Assembly (NCBI RefSeq): GCF_003704095.1
Contig: NW_020844806.1
Coordinates: forward strand, 124,001 to 188,000
Direction: 5' to 3'
Source of the DNA: Pocillopora damicornis
Taxonomy: Eukaryota
DNA: 64,000 nucleotides
Numbering within the stretch: position 1 is the stretch's first letter; each line of letters starts with the position of its first letter. This document shows, piece by piece, positions 9,865 through 61,062 of the stretch. The position numbers were made by a program, and so were the translations under genes. The notes beneath the pieces are model-generated. The model saw nothing but the letters and a program-made list of their open reading frames with translations. It searched no databases and had not been told where the DNA came from.

Positions 9865-12800
9865 TTACATCACCAGACAAGCCTCAGACGGCTGCTGCCT
9901 TGGTGAGCCAGCAGATAAGACAGGCATCATGATCACGTCCTACGAGAGAGTTTCATGAAAATCATATAGCTGAACTAAAGAACAAATATGTTAATAGAGG
10001 GGAGATCGTTGTAGTTTTAAAAATGAATCCGAAACAAACAGATAGACTAGCAAACAAAAAACCAAACAAACAAACAAACAGGACTATATGATCACGCGAC
10101 TGAAACTCGTGATCATCGGGCGAAAACAGTGCAACTTAAAACTAAGGCAACCTTTGATTAAGTCTTATGCTTATGTGAGCTCATAGTTTTATTGACTTCA
10201 AGATACCTACCGCAGGGTGGACAAGAAGATCATGCGCTCCTTCTGCACCATCTCGGTAAGTATTGGTGTTTCCATTGGGCCAGCGGACCTGCTCATAATT
10301 AGACGTGTTTACAAGCTTACAAGAAATGACTATTTCCACATTGACACTTGCAAAAATTAAATCGGGAAATAGCAAACTACACTACAAGCTTATGATTTGA
10401 CTTGTAACAATATGAGTCATTTGCTGTTTTTCTGGACTAAAAACGCGAAGTTAGAATTTTTTTTTTTAATCATAAAACAACTTCATTATAATTTCCAAAA
10501 GCACTGGTTGGAATTCACCTTTTGGGCTTTAGATTTCACGTGTAGTATCACGTGACTTTTGATGTAAACAAACCCCGAGAAGAAGAAGAAGCGTCTCTAC
10601 GCTCAAAATTGACATCTTTCTTTTGTTATTTATTTGATCGTTTATTAAGCAAGTTGTCATTTCGCTGCCGTTGAAGCAGATGCGAAGAATGTTACAGGAA
10701 GCGTTGCGGCATGGAATAATTAAACTAGTGCTGCGTACAGTGATGTATCTGATCAGGTATTTTCAGGGTATTTAGTGCGTAGATTGTCAGATAAATCCCC
10801 GTCCGACAGGAAATTAGTGCCCACGAATCGCTGTAGAACGTGAGGAAGCCTTAATTCCCGCACGTAATAATGTATCTGGGTGTGGATTTCCTTAGCTGAT
10901 TAATGTACCGATTTTTTTAACCCTAAGTAACGCAAATAGGAAATTCTGCGAAACTCAGAACAACCTTCAAGAAAAGTTAAACTTGAGAATGGTAGATCAC
11001 AAAAGTAAAGCTGATTTCAACGCAATGAGTGTGGCAGAGCTTAAAAAATATCTACAAGAACGGGGGATTTCAGCGAGCGGATACTTGAAAACCTCGTTAG
11101 TGGAAATCACCTCCGCAGTCGAAAAAATGGTTCTGCCAGTGGATCCAAATTTCGAAAAGGCGACGTCCCTGCTTTAGGGGAATTAATAATTCATGATATT
11201 CATATTCTTATACCCTAAAGACTGTTAACAGTTTTAACGCGTCGCCGCCGTTTGGATTGTACGACATTTTTAATTATTTGACTTGCTCTCCTGAACTCAT
11301 CACAGGCTCCACGCTCAGATCTAAAAGGGCTTTAACTGCTGCGTATTCCTCTGTCGATTTACCAGTTTGACGATCAAGCGTCAGAAGGGTGTTTGCCACT
11401 GATCGTTCAAGGCAAACTTTCATGCACCTCTCTTTGTCTGCTTCTCGTTCGCAAGATGCCTTTCGTTTACGAGTCGCGACACCCAGGCATGGTGATATAA
11501 AAGAATGACTGAATTAACTTACCCTTTCTTTACTAGCTTCAGCAGATATGGGATCAGGATCCTCTTCTGTTGGACCATTTCCACCGACGAAATGTAGACT
11601 ACAAACGTAGCTGTCCTTCGTGCACACAAACGAGTCACCTCGATGACATAACCTTATCCACCTTTACCTTCTCTACTTTTGTCTAACTGCCCCCGGAAAA
11701 TGGAAAACCTTGACTAGGTCGCCGTTAGCGTTTCTTACCCAGGAGTTGAAGTACCGTGAATCGTTTTTCAGGTGCCATGAGCTCATCTCTTTGTCGTAAC
11801 CATTATGTTTAGGTATACACTTACTAAACAACTGCAATCGTACACGTTCATAGATTTGAAATCGGTTTTATTTTTGGGAATCAAGGCCTCCTCACGTTCT
11901 ACAGCGATTCGTGGGCACTAATTTCCTGTCGGACGGGGTTTTATCTGACAATCTACGCACTAAACACCCTGAAAATACCTGATCAGATACATCAATGTAC
12001 GCAGAACTAGTTCGATTATTCCATGCCGCAACGCTTCTTGTAACATTCTTCGCATCTGCCTCAACGGCAGCGAAATGACAACTTGCTTAAAAACGATCAA
12101 ATAAATGTCAAAAGAACGATGTCAATTTTGAGCGAAGAGACGCTTCTTGAAAGTGGGAAGTTATTTAAGCGAAGTTCGGACACATGTGCTGCGAGCTCGA
12201 CTCAATGTCCGAACTTTCGGGGTTTGTTTTCATCAAAAGTCACGTGATACTACACGTGAAATCTAAAGCCCAAAAGGTGAATTAGTGAGATGCTCCTCAA
12301 AAACCTATTTACGTTAAGTTTGTGGGGAAATGGTCAAGTTGATAGTTAATTTCTCTAGAAAAAAATTGTGCAAAAAAAATCCTGTCTTTAAACTGCCCCT
12401 TAGATCAGGAGAAAAACTTCGTTTTCGTGTTAAAAAATACAGAACATAAACTATTGAGAGAGCAATGTGTGAAGCAAAACAAAAGAGAGGAAATGAAGCA
12501 GAAAAAAAAATCATAACCTGAAACATGCTAAATTCACCTTTGCAATTCCACTGCCTACGTGAAAAACGCGACCGATGTTCCCACTTCCTCCATCTTGATT
12601 TCCCCATTTCCAGTCTGGTCCTACAAATTAATAGAAAGTACATCTAAAGTCAAAGCAATTAATCTAAGTTCCCCGACGACTCTGCGATTGCTCTTTGTGT
12701 AATTGCAGCGCTTACTGTGGTCTTTAAATACCGTCAGGCCATTCTTCCTCCTTCTCCCTCCCTTTCCTCATTGAATTCATGTCCCACAATGACTGTAATA

Positions 12801-42982: not shown

Positions 42983-43381
42983 TTAAACGAAGTCGCTGCT
43001 TTGAATCCAACGCAACTTTGAAGTCAGTGTCGCGCATTTCTGTTCATAATCTTTTTTCTCGCTGATAACCTTTTTCAATTCTCCTTTTACTTTAGATATC
43101 TCCAGCTGAAGATCTTTATTTTCCTGGATGATATCCTTCTCTTTTGATGAGTTTTTCTTTCGACACTTCAGAGCGTACTTGCGATTCTTTAAGATTCGCC
43201 TTCGCTTTCGAACCTTTTGGACCAGACCTTGAGGAAGTTTGCGAAGTCGCCTGTTTAAAGCTTGAATAGACATCGTTTCAAGTTTCTCGTCACTCAATTT
43301 TGCGATTAGAGAAAGATAACTGGAACTTCCATGCTTGGATTTCTTGGCTTTATTCTGCTCAGACGTTTCTCCACGAACCAT
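42983..43381 (-). CDS. Maf-type bZIP transcription factor, class A (copy 1), single-exon CDS; start uncertain
   Basis: Extended homology region (EHR) LSDEKLETMSIQALNRRLRKLP, basic region KRRRILKNRKYALKCRKK, leucine zipper. First in-frame ATG is 43381; the frame stays open to 43525 without an ATG. Confidence 0.85.
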   Translation of the reverse strand: MVRGETSEQNKAKKSKHGSSSYLSLIAKLSDEKLETMSIQALNRRLRKLPQGLVQKVRKRRRILKNRKYALKCRKKNSSKEKDIIQENKDLQLEISKVKGELKKVISEKKDYEQKCATLTSKLRWIQSSDFV

Positions 43382-43595
43382 AATCCTTATGCCCGAGTAA
43401 GCTTTAAAGAGATCTATCGCATTCAATCCACTCTCTTCGCCGGTTAAAATTTCCTTCTCAAAACCGCACCGCTCTTTGGTTGACCTACCTTCGTTTAAGG
43501 AGTAAATCGGGAAAAGTGGAACCCTTCAATGGCCGTCGTTAGTTTGCCTTTATGTTTATGTCGCATGAAGAATCAAAACAAGAAAGAATACTTGT

Positions 43596-43639
43596 CCAAT
43601 CAGATTGCAAGTTAATGATTAAGGGTAAGGGGATTCCCC
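43596..43639 (-). promoter_or_regulatory. kB site + CCAAT box upstream of Maf copy 1
   Basis: GGGGATTCCCC 43629-43639; CCAATCAG 43596. Confidence 0.7.
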
Positions 43640-44067
43640 GTTCGGTTTATTTTAGTAAAGTGGAAACATATCGTCATAGTAAACAATTTTCGTTCGTATC
43701 CCTCGTTAACCGACTGAAGGTAGTTTTATTCCATCGACAATGAAACGAATAGTTAGGTATCAATAGAATGATTACCCAGAGTCTTAAGAACAGTTTCAGT
43801 CGCCGAACTTTTCAAGAGCTGAACTTTATAGACCGACGCAAATAACTGTCTTGCCAGCCGCTAACGTATCAAATGTTGACCTCGGTTAGCCGTTCCAGAG
43901 TCGTTTCTGACTCAGTTTCAGGACTTCGAGTGGTTTCAGGATGAAGCTGTTATCCTGACGTATGCCTTAACATCAACACACGACGATTTTGGCGAGTAAA
44001 TCAAAGCTGCGTCGAAGCCGTTGCTCAGACAAAATTCACAGCTTAGCCATGCGTTAAATACGGTTAA

Positions 44068-44270
44068 CCCTTTAACTCCCAGACCAAATTTGTCATTCTC
44101 CTTACTGTCAACCATACAATTCTTATAATGTTGGTTCAAATAATTTGGCATTGGATCAACTTATTATCCCCAAATTGATAGTTTTCTTTATTCTCATCAC
44201 TTGTCTGGTTGATATTGTATCGATATTGTAAGGAGACATTTTTCTTTGTCACTCATGGGAGTTATACTGG
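44068..44270. mobile_element. MITE with TTAA target duplication (piggyBac-like)
   Basis: TTAA-CCCTTTAACTCCCA ... TGGGAGTTATACTGG-TTAA (degenerate right TIR). Confidence 0.75.
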
Positions 44271-45655
44271 TTAAGCCTTTAAAATCGCCCTCTTAATCTA
44301 TTTAAATGCCAAACTCTTCATGTACAGATTTAAAGGATTTTTTCCCAGCAATTTCGGCAAATGAACATTATGATCATACCTACGGTTTATTACAGCTTAA
44401 GCGAGATGCTATCGAACTTAAGCGGTAGCTCTGGCTCCAAATCCTTACTTTCTATGTTTTATCATCACTTAGAAACCTAATGAGGAAAATGGAACGTAAG
44501 TTAAAATATTGAGTCGAAAAATTCTCCGGATTCTGAAATATTCGTTATTCGGGATGTTTTTGTCTATTACTCAGTCATTAAAGATTCAAAGGTCTCTCCG
44601 TTTCCTCATTCCACTTCAAGGTCTCTTGTGATTCTAATATTACAACCTAAGTAGATTTACGACAACATATCAAAGACGTCAGTTACTGATAACATGCATG
44701 AACATACATTAAATTCAGGACTCTCTTTCTTATACATGCGGTATCAAGAAGTAGAAGAGTTTGGACGGAATGGGGGATGGGTGGATAGGCATTTCTATTC
44801 AAAACTTCCCTTCCCTCCCCTCACCTGCGCCTTACACATTGCCGAGAGTAATTTTACAGAATCCGAGATTTTGACGGATTAGAATCTGACAACCAAATGC
44901 CTATTTTAATATCGGCTCTCCAGGAGAGTCTCTTTCAGTTTCGATAGATGATGTAGTCATTTTCAGTTTCTGTATCCGTGTAAACATGTTATTGGCCGGA
45001 AGTATGGAGCGGGGCTCCTTCGCTCAAGCAGTAGTGTAGACTGGTTGCTTCAAAAACGCTAGAAACAAAAGAAAGCTATTAATTATGTTGTGAAATCGAT
45101 GGCGCGTGGAAATCAGACACTCGCGCGTTTGAAGTGGCATATATCACTACTGTGTTTAACTCTTATTTGACGGGAGTGAATCAACACAGTGAGAAAATAC
45201 TGTGAAATACTGAAAATACACAGACAATTGCATTATAAAGAAAGGTTTTTAAGAAGGAGAGAACGTGAGTTGCGGAGGAAAAGTTTCTTCAAGTTTATTT
45301 CTTTTTTTTAACTTTTTATAATTTCTTTCCGTTCTCTATATCTATAAAGTTGACTGTTTAATGGACCATAAGCTTTATTTTAACCGCTTGACTCTCAATA
45401 TGTACGCATCTTACATCTTTACAGAAATGACTTTATTTAATCTTCTGATCAATCATATCTTTTACTTCTTTAGCAGATGCAAATTTTCCAGCTTTCTCGA
45501 ATTCCCCCTTCTTAGAATAGTTAAGATGTCTCTGAGGCTATGCATATGTTCTGCGAACGATTAGTCATTAAATACATTTAATTTTGACAAAAAAAGGTGC
45601 CATATGCATATTACAAACAATACATCTTCGCAAAAGCTAAATTTTATCACCCAAA

Positions 45656-46237
45656 TCAGGCATCTTTTCTCGGGATTACCATGCTCTGTTTAAACAGCGT
45701 AAAGGATTGTTGCAGCTCCATATATTTTTTCTTGTAAGTCTCTTTCTCTTTCAAAGCTCTCAGTAATGACCATCTTCCATCTTCCACTTGTTTTCTCAGC
45801 GAAGTGTTCTCGTTGATAAGATCTTCCTGTTCTTGCTGTTTTCGAAGACGGCAAGTCAGGGCGTAACCCCGGTTTTTTAAGTTGCGTCTTCGTTTTCTTA
45901 TCTTCTTGGCCTCGTCCCAAGGAACATTTCGCAGAAACCTGTTCAATTCTTGCACCCGCATGTTCGCAATTTCTTCGTCGTTCAATATTTTAACATCTTT
46001 AGGAATCGATTCATCGTCCGATGACTCTGAGGTCGTGTTGTCATCGTCCTGGTGTACTTCTTGGCTTGTCTCTCCGTCGAAAAGATCTTGAATATCGCGA
46101 CTGTCATCTCTGTCGGCCATTTCGCTGCTCTTCTTCGCAGATGAAACGTTTCCAACAACCCACGAACAGCTGAAAGGAAGATCTGTTTCTTCACTGGCGA
46201 GAAACAAATCTGGAAAATCCATAGAATCTTCCTCCAT
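45656..46237 (-). CDS. Maf-type bZIP transcription factor, class B (copy 2), single-exon CDS, 193 aa
   Basis: Acidic N-terminus with DIQDLFDGET; EHR LNDEEIANMRVQELNRFLR; basic region KRRRNLKNRGYALTCRLRK; zipper; ACCATGG Kozak context. Confidence 0.93.
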   Translation of the reverse strand: MEEDSMDFPDLFLASEETDLPFSCSWVVGNVSSAKKSSEMADRDDSRDIQDLFDGETSQEVHQDDDNTTSESSDDESIPKDVKILNDEEIANMRVQELNRFLRNVPWDEAKKIRKRRRNLKNRGYALTCRLRKQQEQEDLINENTSLRKQVEDGRWSLLRALKEKETYKKKYMELQQSFTLFKQSMVIPRKDA

Positions 46238-46369
46238 GGTTAAACGTGAATCTGTAGGTATTAAGTTTGGCTGAAGCTGTAATATCTCAACAGTTTACAT
46301 AATCAAAAGAAAGATGGCGATGTTCCGGCAAAAAGCCGTAATGTAATACATACGAGTGAACTACTTAAG

Positions 46370-46464
46370 CCAATCAGATACCTACGATATTACATTTTGA
46401 TAAAGGGGAATCCCCTAACGCTATTCCAGGAAATTCTCGAATGGCTTTCCATGTATTCCGAGAA
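46370..46464 (-). promoter_or_regulatory. CCAAT + kB + HSE/GAS-like elements upstream of Maf copy 2
   Basis: CCAATCAG 46370; GGGGAATCCCC 46405-46415; TTCcaGGAaaTTCtcGAA 46424-46441; TTCCGAGAA 46456-46464. Confidence 0.7.
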
Positions 46465-49400
46465 TAAATCAAATTAATTAGCATACTGATTTTCCCTAAG
46501 TGTATGTTTCTTTCTACTTGACTTGTTCCGGAGGCATCGTTTCTTCATCATAAGGATGAAAGAAACGAATTTCTCACTAAAGTTTATTGCCTGCGACAGG
46601 AGCCCATCGCCCAGGAGCCTACGACTGTTACCGCACGAAGTCATCTTTTTAAAGGAAATGGTTGTCATGGTTTTAGCATACAATCCAAGGAATAACTTCT
46701 AATCAAGTGAAGTGAAGTGATTGGTTCAAGAAACGGGAAAGGGGCATTCAATTTCAAATCATGTATCGACTCGAGAGTGAGGCAGATAATTGCGCAGCAG
46801 CCCGACGACATTGAGACATTTTGTTTCATCATTCATCATTAACATTTCATTTATGTAAAAATAAAACAGGAAAAATTTAATAAAAAATATACGAGGTGTA
46901 GAAAATAGTTAAAAAACACAATTAAGATAGACTCACTTACTTTTTGGCAGTTGGATGGTAAGTTACTTCTTAGTATTTGTGGTGCATGCGCCGCCGCGGT
47001 CAAGTTTACTTAACCAAGTTGGTTTCCTGTTTTTAACGGCTGTTGCTTGGGATTAAATATCTCTATTTCGGTTCAAGCTGAGCTGGCCGGAAAACATGAG
47101 CCATGTTTGTCTCTATATTTGCCATGAGTAGTAGGAGGAGCTCAGTGAGACGAGATCGACCACAGCCAAAAAGTAAAAAGTACCAGCAATGGCCGGGTAT
47201 CAAATATAATCAATCGCAATGAACAAAACAATGAAACAACAATTGATGGTACCACGAACCTTTTTGAAAATTTTATTTCGAAACAGCCAGTTTTTGGCCA
47301 AAGGGGACAAAATTCAAGAGGACTCTTCAAGAAGCAACGTGATCACGATGCAATAGGCTACAAATACTTTACTAATGTACTAATGTCGTCAGTTACTTTT
47401 TGTTTTTCCCTTNNNNNNNNNNTTTCGCCATCACGTAAAGGTGCCATATCATTTTCAAAGTCAGGTTATCAATGTATCAAAATTGATTTGTTTTTATAAA
47501 AGACTGAGTGATCAGAATCACAGTGACCTTGATGTGTAGGTTATGATCACAGTTGAGGGATCTTTCCTTTCACTCCAAGTGACTGTTTTGACCTTAAACT
47601 CTGTAAACAGGAGAACACCAAGGAAGTGTTAGAAAATTGTAAGCCGAGTCAAGGATTGCAAATAAAATTTGAAAAGATAAAAAAAGACGCTGTTTCATAT
47701 CGCCGGCAACAGTCGAAAAGAAATAAACTCGTAATAACGTTTAGTGTAAAACTTGATAATAAAAATTCGATCGAGCATTGTACCAAATATCATGAAGTAA
47801 TGCCAGATGAAAGATTTTATAATTCAATGTCTGAAACAAAATCCTCAGCGCAGATCGAGACGAATTATGGTGTTTTCGTTTTAGCTGGTATCAGTATCGT
47901 TTACTCTCATTCTCTCTTTAGTCAAGTGGTAAGGTTCATGTATAATCCCGTGATCAGGAAGTGTGAATTTAATCAAGTTGTCGATGAGATATGATAAGTA
48001 ATCAGACCGTTACGTGTCTGATTTAGCATTTTATCAACAACGGTAAATGAACAGGAACGTACTGTAGGGAAGAAGTGTCAGCTAATAATATAATGTCATG
48101 GCTATTTTCCGCAAGTTTCATGGAGTTTAGCAGTTCTGCTTAGTTGTCTGATTTTACAAAATTATTGAGATACCACTAGTGCCCTAATTGGTCAAAGTCC
48201 TATCCTTTATTGCACCGGTTAGCCCATAGAAAATTTAAGTTTATATTGTGAAAGCAATAGGCGTACTAGGCCACGTGGGAAGTTGGGAAAACGCTTAAAA
48301 AGTTTGAACATCACCCGTCTCCGGCTCGTAATTAACAAATTCTTCTCGTGTTTTGTCAGCATGTAGCGTGAGTTATTACGCCAATAGAAAGTGAGGTCTA
48401 TATGTTTAATGACTAGACAATTACAACTTAAGTAGAAATAAGGTTGATAATGAATGCAAATTTTTTCAACGCACATTAATTTCTGGCTCGTGATTAATGA
48501 CGCATTACAAGTTTCCGGTGCGCTTGACAAGGCTGCCTTAATTACTTTTGAATAACAACATTCCTTGAATTCTAGGGGTGATGAACTCTTTCCAGATAAC
48601 GTTAGAAAGGGAAAAATATTTCCTTAAAGTAGCTATTCGTCAAGATAAACTAAAGTGAAACAATGGGTTTTTACTTTTGAAAAACAGTTCAAAACTTAGA
48701 TGTTCGGACTGATTATCGCGATAGATGGAAATAAACAATTGTCCTTGGAAGAAATTGAATTTACAAAAATAATAATTTCTTTTCTTCTTTCGCATCACTC
48801 TGGTAATTAATTATATCTCTATAGCTTATTATTTTTAACTTCTTTTTTGCTTTTGAGGCCGGGAATAATCAAGCAAAGGGTTTAACTTCGAGAAAAGTGG
48901 TAAAATGTGTTTTTCAGAATAAACTGGCGAGTTTGCGTGACACAGTTTGAATGTCGCTATGTTAACAATGGGTAACGGTGTCCATATTTATATATATATA
49001 TCCATAAGATTCATTTTAGATGAGGAAACGAGCTTTTAATATTTGTATAAAATCTAAACCTGAACTCGTCTTGTGACCCCATATTCCTTTCAGCTGTCAC
49101 TCGTGACTATCACGCCTCGAATGGTTTATGTTCCCTGATGTCACGCACGTCTCCTGCTTATCTCAATAACAAAATGGTCACATGTTTGTTTAACAAAGGC
49201 ATTTTATTTCGACCTCCACTTTAGGGAGCAAAATAGATTCGAATAAAAAAAATCCTGTTGATTGTGATGACTAAAGGTACGAAACGAGTTGACGTTCTGT
49301 ACGGGAAATTCACACAATTATGGACGAAATACACCGCGATGATCGCATGCAAAGATTCCACGAACCCAGTTCGAGTTCCTCGAAAGCCGCGTGCGATGAG

Positions 49401-50496
49401 GTTTAAGGAGTGGCTAACACGCAGTCTTTTTAAGCGAGGTTTTCCATTCATCCCTTTCTGCTGTAAAGGAATACTTACGGATTTTCAAAACACATTTAGT
49501 TTGAAATATTTGAAGTACTGTCAGCGTACTTGGTGCGAATAAAATGTATCAGTTCGTATCTATATTTTCGTTTCAACGACTCTCGACTCTCTCCATTTCA
49601 ATTCCACCAGACCCTATGATGAAATAGGGTGCAATTACGGATAATTATGTATTTTTTGCTATCAAAAGGCAATATACACATAAGCAATGAAAGAAACATG
49701 AATTAATACCGCTTCTTCAACTGCTAAGTGTAAAAAAATAAACACCCATACAATCTGAACTTAACATGTTATAATTTATTCCGCAGATAACACTTATCAA
49801 TTACATGTATTTCTCATCTTTTGGCGGAATCATTAATTACAATTTCTTTCGTAAAGTTAAAATAGACCACCACAGATTTAAATAGCTATTTTTGGTAGCA
49901 ACACGACAAAATTTCCGTGGAATTTGATAACATTTAACTGAATTGAATTTATCAACAACTGGACAACTGTAGCATGTCAGGGTTCCAAAATATAGTCAAT
50001 GTACACAATTCATACATCTAAATCAATCTGACTGGCTACTTATTCATCAAAAGTATCCAAAGACTTTACAATTTCTTTACCATAATACATTACTCAATAT
50101 GCTACTGAGCTTTGTGAACGCCACAACCACTCTAAACTGACAAATATTCAAAATATATTATATTCAGCGGTTTATGACCGATAGAATAAATGGAAAGCAA
50201 GGTTTCGTAAAAGATGAAGATCATTCAATTATATTAAAAACTTCTGAGAAACAGCTCTACCTTTGCCTCGATATACTTTAAGCGAGACTCGTTGCGCGAC
50301 GAAGGGTCTAGTAAAGTTCAATGTCACTAACATAACTAACGTTCGCTGCGTAAATCCTTGAGCGTGGGTTCTTGGACTTTGCGAAATTCTAATTACAGTC
50401 AGCTAAGTTACTTTCGTGATCATGTCATCCACAATATAAGTGCATGGAATGGAAATGTGTTCATGAATGTGGCCTCAAAGCCATTATTACCGATAA

Positions 50497-51057
50497 TCAC
50501 GAAGACAAGTGCCGCTTACGGCTCGAAAGCAATGCGTGGAGTTGTTCATATTTCTTCTTAAACATATCTCTGTCTCTCAAAGTATTGTAAAGGTTTTCCT
50601 TCGCTTCTTTCAACTCCAATTTCAATCGCTTGTTTTGCTGTTCGAGGCTTTCTTTCAGTGCCGTGCGCCTTTGTCGACAGAGTGTAGCATAGCCACGATT
50701 CTTCAGGCTTCTCCTCCGTTTTCTAATTTGCTTCGCCTCCGCTTTTGGCAAATTCTTCAACTGCTGGTTCAGAAGTCTTATAGAGATACTAATCAATTCG
50801 TCGTCGGTAAAGGGTTGGTTTTTGCCAACTTGCAAATCCAGTGGGCTCTGAGGCTCGCTACTGGCGATTGATTCGGTCTCGAAGTTGTCCAAATCTAGTC
50901 TTGTTTGCAACAAAACATTCTCGAAGTTATCTTCGCCAACCAGATCTCCCAGTCTATGGTTGTGTGACCAATCTGGACCGCAAACATCGCTCGAGAAATC
51001 CCTCTCCAAAATTTCGTCCATCGGGGACATTTCTGGGAAAAACTCGCTGTAATCCAT
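50497..51057 (-). CDS. Maf-type bZIP transcription factor, class C (copy 3), single-exon CDS, ~186 aa
   Basis: Likely start MDYSEFF (51057, AACATGG); acidic N-terminus; EHR FTDDELISISIRLLNQQLKNLP; basic region KRRRSLKNRGYATLCRQRR; zipper. Confidence 0.9.
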   Translation of the reverse strand: MDYSEFFPEMSPMDEILERDFSSDVCGPDWSHNHRLGDLVGEDNFENVLLQTRLDLDNFETESIASSEPQSPLDLQVGKNQPFTDDELISISIRLLNQQLKNLPKAEAKQIRKRRRSLKNRGYATLCRQRRTALKESLEQQNKRLKLELKEAKENLYNTLRDRDMFKKKYEQLHALLSSRKRHLSS

Positions 51058-51150
51058 GTTAGCAAAATGGGAATCTAACCAAAAATGAGACACATGATGG
51101 TACGATTTCTCATCAAAACTCAGCTCCATACGGGGTTGCTTGATTTTCGT

Positions 51151-51215
51151 CCAATCATATTGCGTGATTTGACTACATCTCACCTGCCTGTCAATCATGA
51201 AAACGGGGAATCCCC
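51151..51215 (-). promoter_or_regulatory. CCAAT + kB upstream of Maf copy 3
   Basis: CCAATCAT 51151; GGGGAATCCCCTAAC from 51205, the same 15-mer as at copy 2. Confidence 0.7.
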
Positions 51216-51393
51216 TAACAGTTTCTAAGCTTCTCAGCTGAAATGTCCAAGCACGTATTAGCTTTTGCAAGGTAAAATAGATCTTGGAACCTTTAAAAAT
51301 TGTTTCTTGTCCCCTGAAAACGTCCGAAAAACATTCCCTCACCGGAAAAAACAAAACTTTTGCGATTTTTTTTTCAGATCTAAAAAAAATATC

Positions 51394-53144
51394 ATTACGT
51401 CATATGTAATATTCTTACAATTCTTTGGTTTTCGTTCGGTTTTCAACCTGAATAAAATTTTCGTGGGCAATTAAGAATTTCTTTCTCGAAGAACAGTTCT
51501 AATGTTTCAGAAAACGTCGCGCAGAATGCGTGTTTCGTATTTCACTGGCCACAGCTGTTTGTTTATCGTACAGGTTCCACCTTAAAAGAGAAGGGAAAGT
51601 CCCTTGCCCTCTGAGGGTCAAAACAATGAAAAGCAGGTATGAAAAATATGCAGCGAACTCATCCTATCGAAATTGTGAAATCGGTAAACTGTAACATGTG
51701 AAGTATAAAGAAATTGATTTCTTCGCGTGGAAAATCTTTTAGGAAAAGGAGAAAATTGATTTTTACATCAAAGATCCCAGAGGGCGGTTGATCAGAGACT
51801 TTTAAGTGTCACGCATTCCAAAAAGGGAAAAACCCCTTCGGAAATGAAACAAAACCGCCGACTTAATGTCAGATGCAAATTTTCACTTTCGAAACTGAAA
51901 GTAAATTTCCCTGATTCCATTGCCCGTAATATTTATTTCTATTTTGGCGATTTGGCCTATAAACATTGTGCTTTTGATCATTTAGTTCAAAACCATATTT
52001 ATATTGCCAAATCTTAGCCACCATTTTCGCTCTATCGAGACTTTCATTTCAATTGCCTTGAGTAGGGAAATTTCCCTTAACCTCTGGGGGTCAACATAAT
52101 CTGAATTGCGACATGCACTGATGTTGCTATAAAATTTCGATCGTCACTGCTGTGAATTCTTATTTTTCAATTTTATTTAAATATATTTTAAAACATGGAG
52201 AGAAGGACCGGGGAAGGAGAGAAAGTAATTACTACTTTCTCCTTTCAATGTTCATCACTTTATATTAAAAACATGTCGGGCGAAGAAAAGATCGATTTAT
52301 TTAGGGGTCAATATTTATCTGCTGTCTTGTGTTTTCATCTTACTATGATCCAAAAATTATGCAGAAGTTGCATACTGTCTCGTTATGAAGGAAAGAACAG
52401 GATCTTAGCTGAAAAATAAAAATCTCCGTTACTCAGGCAGCAAAAAATAGACATAAAACTCTTGAATGATATATAAGTTTACAATCGCTATTACAGCTAT
52501 GAGTATTTTACATTACGACGTGACGTCTTTGGTCAGTATATTGGTATTAGATCGGCAAGGAAGAAACAAGATAAATCACTGTATTAAAAGTTGACTTCTG
52601 GGGATCAAAATCGACTCGTTAAGCGAATATTGGAAGCATGTTTAATGCTCAGCTAATCTATTATGCATGCGCAAAGAACGAAAACATTCAGAAAGGGAAA
52701 CTCCCTGCTGTTGTTTCCACAAGTAGAGGTCATTAATAGATCGAAATTAGTTTCGATTCTGGGACAAGCAGAGAGTTATTAAAACGGAGATGGGAAAAGA
52801 AAAATAATATATTGAAAAACGCAACATTTAGTTACTAGTGCAAGCCGGGTAAACACAAGTCAATCGAAGCTTCTCTTTCGTGAGGGTTTAGCCCTTCATC
52901 AGCGCCAAATACGATCATAGATGATAAACTCTATCGAGCTTTATTATTAGGTAGCATGAAGTGTATTGCATCACCAAAGAATCATAAAATATATTAGGAA
53001 AAAAGGCTCTCAGATGCGTTCGTGCTGCATTCATTTCGATCTCTCTTTGTAAAAAATAAATACATCTACCGACTGAAACAAAACCGAAAACAGACGCTAT
53101 CATTGGCCGAACTGATTAACTTGGATGAAAGCATGGGATTTCCC
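51394..53144. promoter_or_regulatory. Divergent control region with clustered kB, IRF and bZIP motifs
   Basis: GGAAAGTCCC 51594-51603 (reverse complement of GGGACTTTCC), GGGAAAAACCC 51825, TTTCACTTTCGAAACTGAAAGT 51881-51902, GGGAAATTTCCC 52065-52076, GGGAAACTCCC 52695-52705, ATTGCATCA 52965-52973, GGGATTTCCC 53135-53144, ATTACGTCAT 51394-51403. Confidence 0.65.
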
Positions 53145-53268
53145 TAGTATCGTTTGTGTTTGAGAGGTACTTTCCCGCTCTGGGCGTCTTTAATGAAACC
53201 AAACCTTTGCCCTCTGTTGCATTGCTTTTATACTGAATAGCATATAGTCTGTCGATCGCAAATTTGTC

Positions 53269-53853
53269 ATGGAGAAGAAGGAGTCTTACCTTGATTCATT
53301 TGGAGAGCGCGAATTTACTTCGAATAACACGCAGGGTCGACGAGCGCTTTCTGATGGTGTTTGTTATACACGTATGGTTGAAGGACTCCTGCAGATCACG
53401 CCAGAAACTATCGTGAGTCAAGGACGCCTTACAGAATCGGGTAATCTTCACCAACAATTAAATCACAATCGCTCTCTTTTGCTCAAAATAAATAAGAAGC
53501 TTTTCGACGACGAATACCTCGAAAGGACGTCGATTCAAGAGTTGAACAAGAAACTTCGTCGGCTGCCTGAAGGGCTGATTCGGAAATTCAGAAAAAGGAG
53601 ACGAATTCTCAAGAATCGTAAATATGCTCTAAAGTGCCGACAGAAAGGAATAGAGCGACAGAGCTACATCGCACATGAAAATGCAGCCCTTGAGCGAGAA
53701 ATTCTCCAAGCAAATATGGAATTGAGAAAAGTTATCCAGGAAAGGGACAAATATCGACAGAAATACGAACGATTGATAGGTGCTGTTTCTACTTTGAATA
53801 CATCAAGAGAGTTTTCTATGGTGGACTATGGCAGAATTGTAACGGAGCCTTGA
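53269..53853 (+). CDS. Maf-type bZIP transcription factor, class A (copy 4), single-exon CDS, 194 aa
   Basis: EHR FDDEYLERTSIQELNKKLRRLP; basic region KRRRILKNRKYALKCRQK, matching copy 1 except one residue; zipper. Confidence 0.92.
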   Translation: MEKKESYLDSFGEREFTSNNTQGRRALSDGVCYTRMVEGLLQITPETIVSQGRLTESGNLHQQLNHNRSLLLKINKKLFDDEYLERTSIQELNKKLRRLPEGLIRKFRKRRRILKNRKYALKCRQKGIERQSYIAHENAALEREILQANMELRKVIQERDKYRQKYERLIGAVSTLNTSREFSMVDYGRIVTEP

Positions 53854-54000
53854 CTGAAAAAGGAACTTAAAACTTGCCAAATAATAATTTCCATCGCTCT
53901 ACTCTTATATATCATTTGATTTTTGTTGTCAATTTCTGTTATCCTTGGAACACTCTGGCTCCGAGACTCTTTCAATGCTTTCAAAAGCGAAAGATATTAC

Positions 54001-54030
54001 GGGATTCCCCCCCTACGTCATCTTCATTGG
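54001..54030 (+). promoter_or_regulatory. kB + CRE-like + inverted CCAAT upstream of Maf copy 5
   Basis: GGGATTCCCC 54001-54010, TACGTCA, ATTGG 54026-54030. Confidence 0.65.
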
Positions 54031-54179
54031 GCAGAGCTCTAAATCATTTCTGTCATTATTTCAAAACTTGATTGACAGCCGGAGAAAGTCACGTGAGGCA
54101 ATATCGCAGCATCGTAACTTTCGTATCCACGGCCATGTGCTCTCGGTACGTTCAGTAATAGACTGACAGCGGACAAAAC

Positions 54180-54701
54180 ATGACCGATGAAGAACTTTAT
54201 GTCGATTTTCCCAAAATGGACGACACTTTTGATGCTGGGTTGGCTGAAGATAAACCCAGTTCTTATTGGGTCGGCTTTGAACCGCTCGTTGCCGAGGAAG
54301 AAAGCTCTCTAACGCAGACGCACCTATATTCTGTGCGCCCAGATTGTAACACAACCAGCTCTACGCCTAGTGAGCAGATCACCGACTTGGAAATCGCAAC
54401 ACTCCCTATACGCGAACTTAACAAACGCATGAAGAACCTTCCCCAAGCAGAGGTATTGCAAATCAGAAAACGCAGGAGAAGCTTGAGAAACCGCGATTAC
54501 GCGACCAACTGCCGGCGAAGGCGTACAGCGGTTAAAGAGAGCTTGCTGACAGAAAATCAGCGATTGCAAGATCAGCTACGGGCGGCAAATGAAGTCCTTT
54601 CCAGAGCAGTAAAAGAAAGAGACTCTTACAAAAGAAAATTTTCAGAACTACATAAGGCGTATGTCACCTTTAATAGACCTAATGTTGCAAGAAAATGGTA
54701 A
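54180..54701 (+). CDS. Maf-type bZIP transcription factor, class C (copy 5), single-exon CDS, 173 aa
   Basis: EHR ITDLEIATLPIRELNKRMKNLP; basic region KRRRSLRNRDYATNCRRRR; RRTAVKESL matches copy 3 RRTALKESL; zipper. Confidence 0.92.
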   Translation: MTDEELYVDFPKMDDTFDAGLAEDKPSSYWVGFEPLVAEEESSLTQTHLYSVRPDCNTTSSTPSEQITDLEIATLPIRELNKRMKNLPQAEVLQIRKRRRSLRNRDYATNCRRRRTAVKESLLTENQRLQDQLRAANEVLSRAVKERDSYKRKFSELHKAYVTFNRPNVARKW

Positions 54702-57043
54702 CTTTCATGCAATGGCATTCAGTATTGGACCGACATATTAATTTGAGTAGATTCGATCACCGGTCTCACAGCCACAGAAACAATAATAATACGTGTTACT
54801 GGAACTTTCCTTCAAAATTTTATCATGTGAAGTCGAATTAAGGTTAGTGTGCTCCAAATGTATACCAATTACACGAGCTATTTTGAGTAATATTCCGAAA
54901 GAATTTCATCATCAGTCATATTTCTGAGGCTTATAACGCCTGGTTATTTCAATTGGAAATTCCGTAAACTATAGCTTTAGAGACTCAGACACAACTCTCG
55001 TGTTTAGACATTATAGTTGCTTTTTGAATGGCTTTGTATTTCAGTCAGTGATAAAATTAACTTTACTTCAATTCACTTGATAAGCAAGAATAACAAGCTT
55101 ATTCCATTTGAATATTTATTTTTAGACCTCTTTATAACGCGAAAAGTCTAATGTAATTCGAACAATTGCGTATACATATTGTTTGTTGTTCAGAAGGGGG
55201 AAAGTTCTACCTACCTACTACTAACAATGATATCTGTTATAAAATCCAAAACTTGCTGTGGAAATTTCGTTATAAGGTCGGTAAAGATTGATTCGTCAGT
55301 TAGAGAAAATGTCTCACTGAAAGATCATTTAATACTGTTGCTGACTGAAAAAAAGTCATTTTGTGTATTATATGATTGTGTCCGTAGGCGATATTTCTAG
55401 ATAAACAGGAAGGAATAAATTTTTGAACCAAATGAATTTAGAGATATTCATGTAATTTGAAGAAACTATACTCTACTTCAATTTGATGTTGCATGCTGTT
55501 AACAAATTATGTACAAACCTGGTGTTAATAGCTTTAATAAAAAAAGTTTTTTAGGTAAATTTTGTATGCAATTGATGTCTTCAACACAACGGCTTTGATT
55601 TCAGCTTAACTCACCCTGCTTACTTTGGGTCAAAGCATTAGACAAAAGATTTTTAAAGTTTTCCTTGAGTTTACGTTTACTGATACTGCACAACTTCAAG
55701 GTGCATGATTTATCAAAGGGAAATTTCTTTGAACTAACAAATTTCAGGCAAGCCAGCAGCATGAACAGTTTGTGATGTCTCGACAAAAGTTACAGACTTA
55801 AGCAAACGTTTTCTTTGGTAACAATATGATACTGCTACTCTTTATACGCTTAGGCTAGTGACTTTTCTTCAATCAAACCAAGTGCAACCTAGAAATATTG
55901 TGACTTTACCGAGATGAACTGCTAATCAATTGTAAGTTAAAAACACTGCAGATTTTCATCCGGTTTTGTCGCGGCTGATAGGTCTTCAGCACCCATTTAG
56001 TACATGAAAAGAAGCATTGTGAGAGTAAAGTGTCTTCGCCAAGAACACAACAATAAAATTGAAACAACTCACAACTAGAACCCAGCGAGTTGATCATGGA
56101 ACCATCGTGTCTCTCAAATCGTTTTTATCAATTTAGAACCATTCGTTCATAGGGAAACTTTTCAAGCATAATTACGATTCTCTAAAGCTCGTTGACTCTT
56201 AACGATAACAGGGACGTCCCCTCTACAAGAGATATTCAATTTCGTTTGGGTTTAAGAGACTAGAAAGTGTTAAACATGAGAACTTGAGACGCACATGAAT
56301 TTCGATTCATTGAATAAAAAGAAAATTTGACTTCTTCGGTCGATAGTCGCTTAAATTGAAATGTTTTTCCGACAGTGGTCGAAATGGACGTCAAGATATC
56401 AAATCCTTTAGGAGAAAGTTTTAATGCTGGCAAAGAAAATTTTAAGTAGACCCAACTATAAAAAATCAACGAGAGGGGAAAAAACCAAAGATCACAATAC
56501 TTCTTAAAATAGGCTTTCATAACATATCCACAAACACATGAGTGCTAGTTCGACTTTACAACAAAAAAGGATACGTTGTGAACATCTCTCAGTACCACAT
56601 GAAGACCTCGAGGAACCAAGAATATGAACAAACCGCACAACAGTGTCACATCCATGTAGCAAATTGTGTAAAACGGAATATACTCCTTTTGTGTGATTAT
56701 TTGTTTGATTGCTCGCAATGTTTTGTTTTGTTTTGCGATTTCCATGCCTACTAAGTTCAGTTCATCTCCGCCTTTGCATACGTTTATGCGGCTCTTTGCG
56801 TCAACAAATAGAATTTCATTATCCATGAATAGGTTCATTTCTAGACAGCAGTAAAAGAAGTAGAAGAAAAAGGAAGGATAGCCATTAAATCTGATTAATT
56901 TCCCAAATGAAAAAGAAAAGAAAAGAAACTTGGTTGGTTATAAGAGTCTCGTTAACCCTCATGTAAGACACGACTTGTAGATAGTTTGCGAGACTGATGT
57001 AATTTTTTCCATCACCTCGTTGCTGTGTATATACTCAGAAAGC

Positions 57044-57161
57044 TTCAAGAAAATTCTCAGAACAGGACCGCGCAAGGGAATTCCCCCCGAAATGAAAACG
57101 AAAGTTTTCCTGTTTCAGAAACTTAATAAGCTATTCAGCTGCGACATTGGGGGGAAAACCC
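57044..57161 (+). promoter_or_regulatory. HSE/GAS + kB + ISRE + CCAAT + second kB upstream of Maf copy 6
   Basis: TTCaaGAAaaTTC 57044-57056; TTCTCAGAA 57054-57062; GGGAATTCCC 57076-57085; GAAAACGAAAGT 57094-57105; ATTGG 57146; GGGAAAACCC 57152-57161. Confidence 0.7.
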
Positions 57162-57236
57162 TCAGAGACTTTCACTTAGTCATTGTGATTCGCTTCTGAA
57201 AAGGGAGAAATTGTTCATCGACGCTGCATTTGTCAT

Positions 57237-57788
57237 ATGATGGAGGAAGATTTTGATGCCCTGTTCGGTGTGTACTCCACCGATGCCATGAAACACGTTT
57301 TTGAAAACCTATGGACGGAAGAGAGTCTTCTATTTGAGGAAAACAATTCTACCTCCAACACAGATGGCGACATCCAAGATCTTTTCGACGGTGAAACAAG
57401 AAATGAAGAAAATTACTCATCTTCTGAATCTGAAACTGAGAGCTTGAATCCTTCGACGATAAGCGACGAACAAATTCAAAATCTCCGCGTGCAAGATCTC
57501 AACAAGCTTCTTCGGGACCTCCCGCGGGACGAGGCAGCAAAAATAAAGAAGCGAAGACGCAACTTGAAGAATCGAAACTATGCTTTGAATTGTCGCATTC
57601 GTAAACAGCAAAAATACGAAGATCTGCTAAACGAGAACTTCTCATTGAAAGAGCAACTGGAGAGTGAGAGAAGTCAGCTAAGAAATGTCTGGACAGAGAA
57701 AGAGGCGTTCAAGAAGAAATATCAGCATTTGCAGAAGTCTTTTGCTGTCTACATGCAAAGCAAGATATCTACCGAGCTGCCGGCATGA
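57237..57788 (+). CDS. Maf-type bZIP transcription factor, class B (copy 6), single-exon CDS, 183 aa
   Basis: MMEED start and DIQDLFDGET shared with copy 2; EHR ISDEQIQNLRVQDLNKLLRDLP; basic region KRRRNLKNRNYALNCRIRK; zipper. Confidence 0.93.
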   Translation: MMEEDFDALFGVYSTDAMKHVFENLWTEESLLFEENNSTSNTDGDIQDLFDGETRNEENYSSSESETESLNPSTISDEQIQNLRVQDLNKLLRDLPRDEAAKIKKRRRNLKNRNYALNCRIRKQQKYEDLLNENFSLKEQLESERSQLRNVWTEKEAFKKKYQHLQKSFAVYMQSKISTELPA

Positions 57789-59111: not shown

Positions 59112-61062
59112 ATGCGATGCACTGACTTTATTTCATTGGTGTTGTCCGTGTCGTATGTCACCTGTGGAGGTATTTGGTGTACGTTATAATGAAATTGTTA
59201 CCTATTGTTACTCTGCCTTAGCAATTAGCAAGCCCCAAACTCCGATGTAAAAAAAAAAGTTGTTTGCGTCTTAGCACCATTTTGTCGATGATTTGTTGCA
59301 AGGGTTACAGCCTTGCCTACTCAGTCAGTTGACATGTTAACATATTATTCATCTTCTCTAGTGAGGCGAAATTAACGCTTGACTGCATATGAGATCTTTT
59401 AAACAAAGCGTTGACAAATGTCAATGATATTGAAGTGCGTGTGTCGCGCCTCCGCTTGATTTTTCAGTAAAAAAACGTGACGATGAAAGTGCTCTGAAGG
59501 TGGGTAGAATTAGATCTGCAGATTCGTTCCTTATCTCCGGACTGAACCCAAAATACCAGCTTTAAGTCCGTACAACGCATTAATTAAGTGTGTACTGAAC
59601 TGAAGCCGAAAAATATGTTACTACATCGAACATTTTAACACTGAAATCAGCAAAATAGAAGGGCGGAGGGAGGTAGCTTGCGAGAAAAGTGTGATAGAAA
59701 ACGAGGGAGACTAAATACATCGAAGAAAGGACCCTTGTCACTGTTGTTTAAAAAAAAACCTTGCCAATTTCTCTCGCTTGCTCATTCGCTCACCTCCAGT
59801 AACCAAGAGACTGATAAATTGATACCCTGGACTCCTTAAAAACAAACATTAAACTTGACTTAAAAATTTTGTCGTCTCTTACTGAATGCATTCCACTCAA
59901 TTGTCTTAGGTTATGAATACGTAGGTTGCTATAAAGATTCGGACCCCAGAGATCTCCCACAAAGAGTTCACGGCCGTGAAGTGACAGTAAAATCGTGCGC
60001 CAAGAGCTGCAAGGACCTGTTTTATAGATTCGCTGGCCTTCAGTTTTCATATCTCTGCTTCTGTGGTAACAAGCGAGGGCGGTACGGTCTGCTGCCGGAG
60101 TGGAAGTGTTCGAGTGAATGTACCAATAAAGAAGACAAGCATTGTGGAGGATACTGGAGTAACTCCATTTACAAAACAGGTGTAGTTGATATCAGAGCTC
60201 GCCGATAATTTCTTTGAAAGGTTATAACAAAATTGGCTCTCGAGTCAATCGTCGCATTTTGCTATAATCACTCCGCGTAAGGGGGTTATGTCACTAAAGC
60301 ATCAGAATTTGCATTCTCCACCGAAATTGCAACTGCTCTGATGATTGCCTGAGTTACTATACCAAGACAATTATCGCGGACTCAATGAACATCGTCGAAT
60401 AATTCCCATTCCAATACGTCTACAACTTCTGTTTAATTTGACTTTAGGTTATGATCCACCGGCTGGTGTCAAGATAACTCCACTGCTAACAAAAGCCTTA
60501 GCTGATCTCAAACCGCATGTAAATGCTACCAACCACACGAAGGTGAGCATGACAAACATGATGATGAAGAATTTCAAGCGGGTAGGGTTGTTCAAGAAAC
60601 AATTCATAAAAACAGAACGTGAAAGTAAATGTTTGGATTAGCTCCGCAGCTTTGCTATCATTTCACATTTCCCCTTTTTCATCTTTTGCTTTCTTGAAAT
60701 TGTTCTACACACAAGCTTGATTTTGGAAATAATCATTGATTCGAGGAAACGAGAAAACAATATTGCGCAGGGCAAGATAAACTCAGAACCGTAATGAGGA
60801 AATTTTAACCCGAGAAAGTAAGGTCTCTTTTTTTTGTCTTGATTGAATGTAACCCTCAATTGAAAAATTGTGCTTAATTTTATGAACTACATGCAAAAGA
60901 ACGAAAGCAGCGGCGAAACTAGTTCTGGCCCTTTTAATATAAAGAATAAAATATGAAAAAATGGGAGATCTCCCTGCAGTCTTAACGATGATATATGATC
61001 ATTATATGGGTTTTCATCCTAATTTACAGGAACACAAGAAGGCTAAAAGTACCAACCACTGA
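59112..61062 (+). CDS. Small secreted WSC-domain protein (~151 aa, 4 exons)
   Basis: Exons 59112-59169 (signal-like MRCTDFISLVLSVSYVTCG, GCCATG context), 59910-60179 (YVGCYKD..TVKSCAKSC..FAGLQFSYLCFCG..CSSEC..CGGYWSNSIY), 60448-60542, 61030-61062. Phases are consistent; the last exon is least certain. Confidence 0.8.

What the first reader, a model, noticed from the sequence alone, without database searches (positions are those of the whole stretch)
42983..57788. Three paralog classes, each present once per strand: C-B-A leftward and A-C-B rightward
Seen: pairs are copies 1/4 (ILKNRKYALKCR, LPxGL), 2/6 (MEED, DIQDLFDGET, NLKNR) and 3/5 (KNLPxAE, RRTAxKESL). Transcriptional orders C,B,A and A,C,B are cyclic permutations of each other, not a mirror image. 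Inference: an ancestral A-C-B unit was tandemly duplicated and then inverted. Retention of one full set per arm hints at dosage balance or obligate heterodimer partners.
Basis: partly seen in the sequence, partly recalled or inferred. Interest (0 to 1): 0.7.

Follow-up and report, generated by a model that had tools for sequence, protein, structure and literature searches.

The report
Coral Maf cluster wired to NF-kB
Six small Maf-type transcription-factor genes sit together in this coral genome, each with an NF-kB binding sequence just upstream that other corals have kept too, so the cluster likely relays the coral's immune and stress alarm to further genes.

Summary
In detail: six single-ORF bZIP_Maf genes in three classes, ordered A- B- C- | A+ C+ B+. 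The orientation switch is real and lies between genes 3 and 4, not at the 47413 gap. The dosage/obligate-partner reading is not supported: the genome has a third A and a third B on another contig, and other corals carry 3-4 tandem copies of the gene-2 type. All six strict kappaB sites of the 64 kb lie one each 134-258 bp before the six start codons (0.57 matches expected). Such a site is present in 32 of 37 dereplicated homologous promoters from other corals, against 34 of 948 background tiles. Anemone NF-kB binds these exact 10-mers on published microarrays. Class-specific co-motifs (STAT-like in B, IRF-like in gene 6) are conserved too. In published Nematostella data three Maf genes are cGAMP-induced and one is NF-kB-dependent; four consecutively numbered Montipora Maf genes rise together under heat. 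Best reading: an old stony-coral Maf expansion acting as an NF-kB-inducible second tier. Expression in this species was not examined. I found no description of the cluster or its promoter code in 10 literature searches.

The parts
42983..43381 (-). Gene 1, class A Maf bZIP, 132 aa from the first ATG; the older, longer N-terminus is out of frame near 43515, leaving a short small-Maf-like protein
   Evidence: no indel listed there in 4 DNA runs
43629..43639 (-). kappaB site of gene 1 (258 bp before ATG), ATTGG box 39 bp downstream
   Evidence: 10-mer bound by anemone NF-kB, z 13.7-14.7
44063..44260 (.). High-copy short repeat between genes 1 and 2; not part of the system
   Evidence: depth thousands of times the flanks; copies in L017, L018, L021
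45656..46237 (-). Gene 2, class B Maf bZIP, 193 aa, acidic N-terminus
46405..46415 (-). kappaB site of gene 2 (178 bp before ATG), ATTGG box 41 bp downstream
46424..46464 (-). Two STAT-type palindromes (TTCN3GAA) upstream of the gene-2 kappaB site
   Evidence: the motif label is recalled
47413..47422 (.). Assembly gap between genes 2 and 3; not the orientation switch
   Evidence: bridged by 57 letters in one contig of run X1
50497..51057 (-). Gene 3, class C Maf bZIP, 186 aa; start chosen by agreement with orthologs
51205..51215 (-). kappaB site of gene 3 (158 bp before ATG), ATTGG box 60 bp downstream
   Evidence: identical in 3 of 3 aligned orthologs against 0.56 identity for the rest of the 300 nt
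51252..51257 (-). TACGTG element (hypoxia-response-like) of gene 3
   Evidence: 3 of 4 gene-3-type promoters; label recalled
51594..51603 (.). Distal kappaB site in the divergent 3/4 spacer
   Evidence: same place in L023, L026, L027, absent in L031, L032; z 7.7-10.6
52695..52704 (.). Second distal kappaB-like site in the 3/4 spacer
   Evidence: a site at a similar distance from gene 4 in L031, L032
53135..53144 (+). kappaB site of gene 4 (134 bp before ATG)
   Evidence: z 9.7-11.4
53269..53853 (+). Gene 4, class A Maf bZIP, 194 aa, N-terminus not acidic
54001..54020 (+). kappaB site of gene 5 (179 bp before ATG) followed by a TACGTCA (CRE/PAR-like) element
   Evidence: co-element in 3 of 5 gene-5-position promoters; label recalled
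54180..54701 (+). Gene 5, class C Maf bZIP, 173 aa
57054..57105 (+). Gene-6 promoter module: STAT-type palindrome 57054-57062, kappaB site 57076-57085, IRF-type element 57094-57105
   Evidence: STAT-type and IRF-type elements in 2 of 2 gene-6-position orthologs, whose kappaB site is a variant that fails the stricter pattern; the 10-mer here has z 11.4-12.7
57237..57788 (+). Gene 6, class B Maf bZIP, 183 aa, acidic N-terminus

Best explanation
The region is a conserved stony-coral cluster of six divergent Maf-family bZIP genes, each with a kappaB site in its proximal upstream DNA, and it likely works as an NF-kB-inducible second tier of the immune and stress response. Shown: the genes, classes, order, synteny, the kappaB sites and their conservation, and (from published arrays) binding of these 10-mers by anemone NF-kB in vitro. 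Inferred: activated NF-kB binds each promoter and switches the short single-exon genes on together; class-specific co-elements (STAT-type in B, STAT+IRF-type in gene 6, TACGTG in gene 3, CRE/PAR-type in gene 5) tune which paralog answers which signal; the proteins dimerise among themselves through a shared Asn at the first zipper a-position and bind Maf-type sites, acidic B and C acting as activators and non-acidic A as partners or dampeners. The copies would then be kept for distinct regulatory inputs, not for fixed stoichiometry.
For: GGGRAWTYCC gives 11 matches = 6 sites in 64 kb, one before each ATG, none elsewhere; shuffles mean 0.57, 0 of 100 reach 11. Genome-wide 2559 matches in 234 Mb, so at most 0.0033 per 300 nt. 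Homologous promoters from coral metagenome contigs: 68 of 76 with enough upstream DNA, 32 of 37 after dereplication, background 34 of 948 tiles. The site is the best-conserved 10-mer of the 300 nt for genes 3 and 4. STAT-type palindrome in 16 of 17 class-B homologs, 0 of 5 A, 0 of 9 C, background 2.8%. PBM z-scores for Aiptasia/Nematostella NF-kB 9.7-15.4 for the proximal 10-mers (PMC5700166 supplement). The genome has an NF-kB-type RHD exon. Nematostella: three Maf-named genes induced by 2'3'-cGAMP (log2FC 5.1, 6.8, 4.1 in polyps); one falls on NF-kB knockdown (log2FC 1.40, padj 5e-7) (PMC8713801 dataset S1); three maf paralogs mark the immune cell state (PMC10946136). Montipora g30493-g30496, four consecutively numbered Maf genes, rise 2.0-2.4-fold under heat (PMC8590396). 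Asn at a1 in 200 of 202 class A/B/C homologs, Arg in the genome's large and small Maf.
Against: No expression or binding data for this species or these genes were examined. Only 1 of the 3 induced Nematostella Maf genes is on the NF-kB-knockdown list, and I could not tell which Maf it is; the Nematostella protein closest to this clade is named MafG, and the gene named MafG in the dataset is induced but not on that list (name match only). No Maf is among the 8 genes lowered by STAT knockdown, though that knockdown was weak overall. By alignment the site is not outstanding for gene 5 (61 of 272 other 10-mers as conserved) or gene 6 (33 of 272). 5 of 37 homologous promoters fail the kappaB pattern, among them both gene-6-position and both C134_B ones. 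The scan interval was chosen after seeing the data, and homologs are not independent. A Maf gene moves in opposite directions under heat in Porites and Acropora (PMC8691061; which Maf is not stated in the passages seen).
Confidence: 0.72

Rival explanations
1. Dosage balance or obligate heterodimers keep one A, one B and one C per arm.
For: Two of each class in the window, and the right half of the layout is kept in other corals. Class A homodimers carry 2 attractive and 2 repulsive g-e pairs, against 3-4 and 1 with B or with gene 3. A shared a1 Asn would allow A-B-C mixing.
Against: Genome copy number is A3:B3:C2. Gene-2-type B has 3-4 tandem copies in L043, L045, L059. B and gene-3 homodimers score 4/0. 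Gene 1 has lost its N-terminus in this lineage. Nothing ties strand to stoichiometry.
Confidence: 0.1
2. The palindromes are bound by another factor, or are constitutive promoter elements inherited from the ancestral gene; the cluster is a developmental or housekeeping set and not NF-kB-induced.
For: The genome's large-Maf gene has the same kappaB + ATTGG module, so it was inherited. Two of three induced Nematostella Maf genes are not on the NF-kB-dependent list. Other Rel-domain proteins such as NFAT can bind similar sites (recalled).
Against: Fourfold sites are saturated in the B and C pairs (3/14, 2/14), so mere inheritance would have erased the site. The sites are bound by cnidarian NF-kB in vitro. 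Small Maf and two Jun-type genes have none in 700 nt upstream. Published induction by cGAMP and heat.
Confidence: 0.13
3. The layout is an assembly artefact, or an accidental product of separate single-gene duplications with no meaning.
For: There is an N gap inside the cluster, bridged in only 1 of 4 runs. Stretch 44092-44207 is broken by a repeat in all four runs. Branch lengths between pair members differ (A far longer), so one block duplication is not proven.
Against: The switch is spanned by a run not flagged as a source. The 3<- ->4,5,6 layout is found in L023, L031, L032 and 3<- ->4,5 in L026, L027, and the WSC-domain neighbour is shared with L032. Oculina tags G011280 (gene-1 type), 283 (gene-3 type), 284, 285 (gene-6 type) and Desmophyllum tags 005181 (gene-6 type) and 005186 (gene-1 type) each span six numbers.
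Confidence: 0.05

Closest known systems
Maf family bZIP factors (MafG, MafB, MafA; Pfam PF03131; PDB 7x5e, 3a5t, 2wty, 4eot)
   Same: Extended homology region, basic motif R-x-L-K-N-R-x-Y-A-x-x-C-R and zipper align without gaps to MafG (E 8e-15).
   Different: Three divergent classes with Ile, Asn or Ser where MafG has Thr; Asn at zipper a1 in place of the a3 Asn of MafG and of this genome's small Maf; no Maf_N hit; six genes in 15 kb. Database names MafA/B/G/K for these proteins are labels by similarity: PMC4736632 (passages seen) places the large/small Maf split after the cnidarian-bilaterian divergence.
Cnidarian NF-kB target promoters, e.g. Nematostella TRAF3 (PMC10329013, passages seen)
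   Same: High-affinity kappaB sites near the gene start.
   Different: TRAF3 was tested by EMSA and mutated reporters; these were not. Here a whole transcription-factor family carries the site, in every paralog and across coral families. No Maf appears in that paper's main text or in the 2026 review PMC13042239.
Heat-induced Maf genes of Montipora capitata g30493-g30496 (PMC8590396) and cGAMP-induced Maf genes of Nematostella (PMC8713801)
   Same: Several Maf paralogs rise together under stress or immune stimulation; consecutive numbers suggest a cluster.
   Different: The passages seen treat them as oxidative-stress factors or list them only in a supplement; neither clustering, classes nor promoter sites are mentioned. 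Their orthology to genes 1-6 was not tested.

Membership tests
Maf bZIP family | bZIP_Maf domain (extended homology region + basic region + zipper) over the curated cut-off | tested here: met
   6 of 6, 57-73 bits against cut-off 22
Maf bZIP family | Maf-type basic region with Arg, Asn and Tyr at the MafG positions | tested here: met
   All six read R-x-L-[KR]-N-R-x-Y-A; gene 6 aligns gap-free to MafG. That these residues define Maf DNA recognition is recalled; the source paper was not held.
Maf bZIP family | Binding to MARE sites as dimers | not testable with these tools
   No binding assay; no full MARE in the window itself
Large Maf (MafA/MafB/c-Maf/NRL) | Maf_N-type acidic transactivation domain | tested here: not met
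   No Maf_N family hit; B and C have acidic N-termini (median net charge -0.23, -0.19 per residue), A does not (-0.04). The genome has a separate large-Maf-like gene on C2075.
Small Maf (MafF/G/K), partner of CNC/Nrf | Short N-terminus and small-Maf zipper pattern (basic a1, Asn a3) | tested here: not met
   a1 is Asn and a3 is Leu in all six; the genome's small Maf on C2929 has Arg a1, Asn a3. Only gene 1 is short.
Direct NF-kB target genes | Proximal site that NF-kB binds in vitro | tested here: met
   6 of 6 promoters; the 10-mers have PBM z 9.7-15.4 with anemone NF-kB
Direct NF-kB target genes | Site conserved in homologous promoters | tested here: met
   32 of 37 dereplicated promoters, background 34 of 948; alignment footprint clear for genes 2, 3, 4, weak for 5, 6
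Direct NF-kB target genes | Induction depends on NF-kB and on the site in vivo | tested here: inconclusive
   Only homolog data: 1 of 3 induced Nematostella Maf genes is NF-kB-dependent, identity unresolved
Dosage-balanced / obligate heteromer gene sets | Fixed copy ratio across genomes | tested here: not met
   A3:B3:C2 here; 3-4 tandem gene-2-type copies in L043, L045, L059

The most novel reading that the evidence does not exclude
Stony corals have a private signal-decoding module: an ancient Maf expansion in which every paralog is hard-wired to NF-kB, each subtype adds its own second input (STAT, IRF, hypoxia-type, CRE/PAR-type), and a clade-specific zipper code lets the induced proteins combine only with each other, so that the mix of dimers tells infection, heat and hypoxia apart. 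Lineage-specific amplification of the STAT+kappaB class-B gene could then help set species differences in bleaching and disease response.
Probability: 0.3. Interest if true: 0.82.

Novelty: new variant of a known kind. Interest (0 to 1): 0.58.

Why it matters
NF-kB is central to coral immunity, symbiosis and heat stress, yet few direct targets are known in cnidarians; the 2026 review PMC13042239 (passages seen) calls for work to characterise them. This gives six to nine concrete, conserved candidate targets that are themselves transcription factors, with exact sites to mutate, and offers a reason why Maf genes recur in coral stress and anemone immune transcriptomes. The conserved class-specific co-elements make cnidarian STAT and IRF function testable on short promoters. 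The gene-order puzzle alone is of modest interest.

Tried and rejected
Gap as the site of the inversion: wrong, it lies between two minus-strand genes. Mirror (inverted) duplication: needs 3 further inversions against 2 for tandem models. Dating the three pairs to one event: fourfold sites are saturated or too few (8/15, 3/14, 2/14) and class rates differ, so undecided. Rooting the A/B/C clade against large and small Maf: unresolved, long branches. Viral contigs: no relatives. Earlier scan notes: nothing in 3 look-ups. Montipora gene ids not found in that paper's supplements; no Maf rows in the supplements held for PMC13319465; bioRxiv supplements could not be seen and may list Maf expression (10.64898/2026.07.18.739195). 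Autoregulation: no full MARE found in the window. CCAAT alone is weak (33% of background tiles); only GATTGG at a fixed distance (4%) counts. No structure or complex prediction was run: bZIP coiled coils would pass by likeness to solved structures. Dropped before the promoter count: L057 (small-Maf-like), two chance motif matches without a BLAST hit, and 13 of 89 ORFs with under 620 nt upstream.
Full report
WHAT IS THERE. The window is animal DNA; the closest named proteins are from Pocillopora, then Stylophora, Oculina and Desmophyllum. Six ORFs between 42983 and 57788 each encode a complete bZIP_Maf domain without an intron, and tblastn finds no seventh in the window. Gene 6 aligns gap-free to MafG in the PDB (E 8e-15). 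The order is A- B- C- A+ C+ B+.

ASSEMBLY. The N gap (47413-47422) lies between genes 2 and 3, not at the switch. Of four DNA runs laid, one (X1, possibly a source of this DNA) has a 26.7-kb contig that bridges the gap with 57 letters and runs on to 58500; X14, which differs at 14 letters there, spans 51048-54010 across the switch. Five loci from other corals hold the same head-to-head 3/4 pair.

CONSERVATION. Of 61 loci from coral metagenome contigs, L023, L031 and L032 carry 3<- ->4,5,6 and L026, L027 carry 3<- ->4,5; L032 also shares the WSC-domain neighbour. In Oculina the tags G011280, 283, 284 and 285 are gene-1 type, gene-3 type, a model that by eye joins a gene-4-type N-terminus to a gene-5-type protein, and gene-6 type; 281-282 were not retrieved. 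In Desmophyllum 005181 is gene-6 type and 005186 gene-1 type. Montipora foliosa, a complex-clade coral (clade recalled), has a protein that groups apart from the gene-4 type within class A and a C134-type A on one chromosome-size contig. Single class-C-like proteins exist in Exaiptasia and Nematostella. I infer that the cluster is at least as old as the split of these coral families; the quick trees carry only SH-aLRT 88-94 for the paralog subgroups.

A search over signed inversions shows that A-C-B tandem reaches the observed order in two steps, as do C-B-A and six mixed-orientation units; none does it in one, mirror duplications need three. The genome has a further B->A pair on C134 that branches outside both cluster pairs and shares the left arm's B->A adjacency. 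Block duplication is plausible but unproven. Dosage balance fails its test: A3:B3:C2 here, and gene-2-type B stands in 3-4 tandem copies in L043, L045, L059. A g-e charge count gives B and gene-3 homodimers 4 attractive and 0 repulsive pairs; class A gives 2/2 alone and 3-4/1 with B or gene 3. This rough count suggests that A prefers partners, not that pairing is obligate.

THE PROMOTERS. The pattern GGGRAWTYCC matches 11 times, at 6 sites, in 64 kb; each site lies 134-258 bp before one of the six ATGs and there is none elsewhere; shuffles give 0.57 on average and never 11. The genome has 2559 matches in 234 Mb (reversed control 1763), at most 0.0033 per 300 nt. The C134 A copy and the large-Maf gene carry such a site, C134 B a variant; small Maf and two Jun-type genes have none. 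Among 89 Maf-clade ORFs in the fetched loci, 76 had enough upstream DNA; 68 of 76, and 32 of 37 after dereplication, have GGGRNWYYCC 380-620 nt before the basic motif, against 34 of 948 background tiles. The interval was set, and the homologs share ancestry; but synonymous sites between paralogs are saturated, so retention implies selection. In alignments the site is the best-conserved 10-mer for genes 3 and 4, near the top for gene 2, and unremarkable for genes 5 and 6, where it is shifted or varied. A distal site in the 3/4 spacer is kept in 3 of 5 orthologous spacers. Co-elements follow class (labels recalled): TTCN3GAA (STAT type), usually twice, in 16 of 17 B homologs, in genes 2 and 6, and in none of 5 A, 9 C and 4 C134-A homologs (background 2.8% of 470 tiles); an IRF-type element in gene 6 and 2 of 2 positional orthologs; TACGTG in gene 3 and 3 of 4 of its type (also 2 of 5 at the gene-5 position); TACGT(A/C)A in gene 5 and 3 of 5; an ATTGG box 25-70 bp downstream of the kappaB site in 5 of the 6 window genes.

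OUTSIDE EVIDENCE. The protein-binding microarray of PMC5700166 (passages and supplement rows seen) gives final z-scores for Nematostella and Aiptasia NF-kB of 13.7-14.7 for the gene-1 10-mer, 13.2-15.4 for that of genes 2, 3, 5, 9.7-11.4 for gene 4 and 11.4-12.7 for gene 6; I did not see the whole distribution. The genome has an RHD exon reading RFRYPCEG (its NF-kB character is recalled). In PMC8713801 (one section and dataset S1 rows seen) three Maf-named Nematostella genes rise with 2'3'-cGAMP; 5501982 is lower after NF-kB knockdown (log2FC 1.40, padj 5e-7), the other two are not on that list, and none is on the short STAT list. PMC10946136 and PMC13319465 (passages) name Maf paralogs as markers of the anemone immune state. 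PMC8590396 (passages) reports g30493-g30496 up 2.0-2.4-fold under heat in Montipora; a Stylophora preprint (passages) lists a Maf-like gene up in alga-hosting cells at 48 h of heat. PMC8691061 (passages) reports opposite heat responses of a Maf gene in Porites and Acropora. None of these genes was mapped to genes 1-6.

PROTEINS. The DNA-facing motif is Maf-like in all six. Asn at zipper position a1 stands in 200 of 202 class A/B/C homologs, where the genome's large and small Maf have Arg and CNC has Ile (8 proteins without the motif and one unclassed left out). B and C have acidic N-termini, A does not. Gene 1's older N-terminus is out of frame near 43515 relative to Stylophora, with no indel listed in four runs, so it would start at 43381 as a 132-aa protein.

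MECHANISM AND ODDS. Shown: genes, synteny, sites, conservation, in-vitro binding of the 10-mers. Inferred: induction through NF-kB, tuning by co-elements, dimer code, activator/dampener roles. I give 0.72 to an NF-kB-inducible second-tier cluster, 0.13 to another factor or constitutive use, 0.10 to dosage or obligate partners, 0.05 to artefact.

NOVELTY. Maf factors, tandem paralog clusters and NF-kB targets are all known kinds. Ten searches of the paper library showed no paper describing this cluster, its three classes or its kappaB promoters; PMC4736632 (passages) notes only that eumetazoans have at least two Mafs, and PMC13042239, PMC8713801 and PMC10329013 have no Maf in their main text. 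Subscription journals and preprint supplements were not searchable, so prior mention cannot be excluded. Verdict: new variant of a known kind, interest 0.58, carried by the promoter code and not by the gene-order puzzle.

Noticed in passing
G000:C134:145099-147702 (L015 5099-7702, minus): A third B and a third A Maf gene as a B->A tandem pair with kappaB-like sites; the pair is conserved in L062, L063, L071, and its A ortholog lies on the same chromosome-size contig as the cluster in Oculina, about 2370 tags away.
   Followed up: yes
G000:C2075 (L002): The large-Maf-like gene carries the same kappaB site and ATTGG box, 441 and 365 bp before its first ATG, so the module likely predates the expansion.
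   Followed up: partly
L080 1093 (+): A very divergent Maf from another organism's contig has kappaB, STAT-type and GATTGG elements in the same order; its taxon was not determined.
   Followed up: partly
L043, L045, L059, L075: Tandem arrays of 2-4 gene-2-type B genes about 2-2.7 kb apart in other corals, each copy with enough upstream DNA having its own kappaB module.
   Followed up: partly
window 43509-43535: Frame break that removes the older N-terminus of gene 1 relative to Stylophora and Oculina; close relatives also have short forms (126-147 aa).
   Followed up: partly
window 10512-12283: Inverted arms of about 350 bp, 93-99% complementary, 1 kb apart; looks like a non-autonomous DNA transposon.
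   Followed up: no
window 44063-44260 and within 55675-56241: High-copy short repeats inside the cluster; the first has ends that begin TTAACCCTTT, as a MITE might.
   Followed up: no
window 26666-29794 (-): 1042-aa ORF ending in an fn3_4 domain (ATF7IP-like by recall).
   Followed up: no
window 59864-60208 (+) and L019: WSC-domain exon of a large secreted-type gene right of gene 6, syntenic in L032.
   Followed up: partly
P0214, P0231 (public gene models): Public annotations fuse neighbouring cluster genes into one protein (gene 4 + gene 6 types in Stylophora; gene 4 N-terminus + gene 5 type in Oculina), which may have hidden the cluster.
   Followed up: partly
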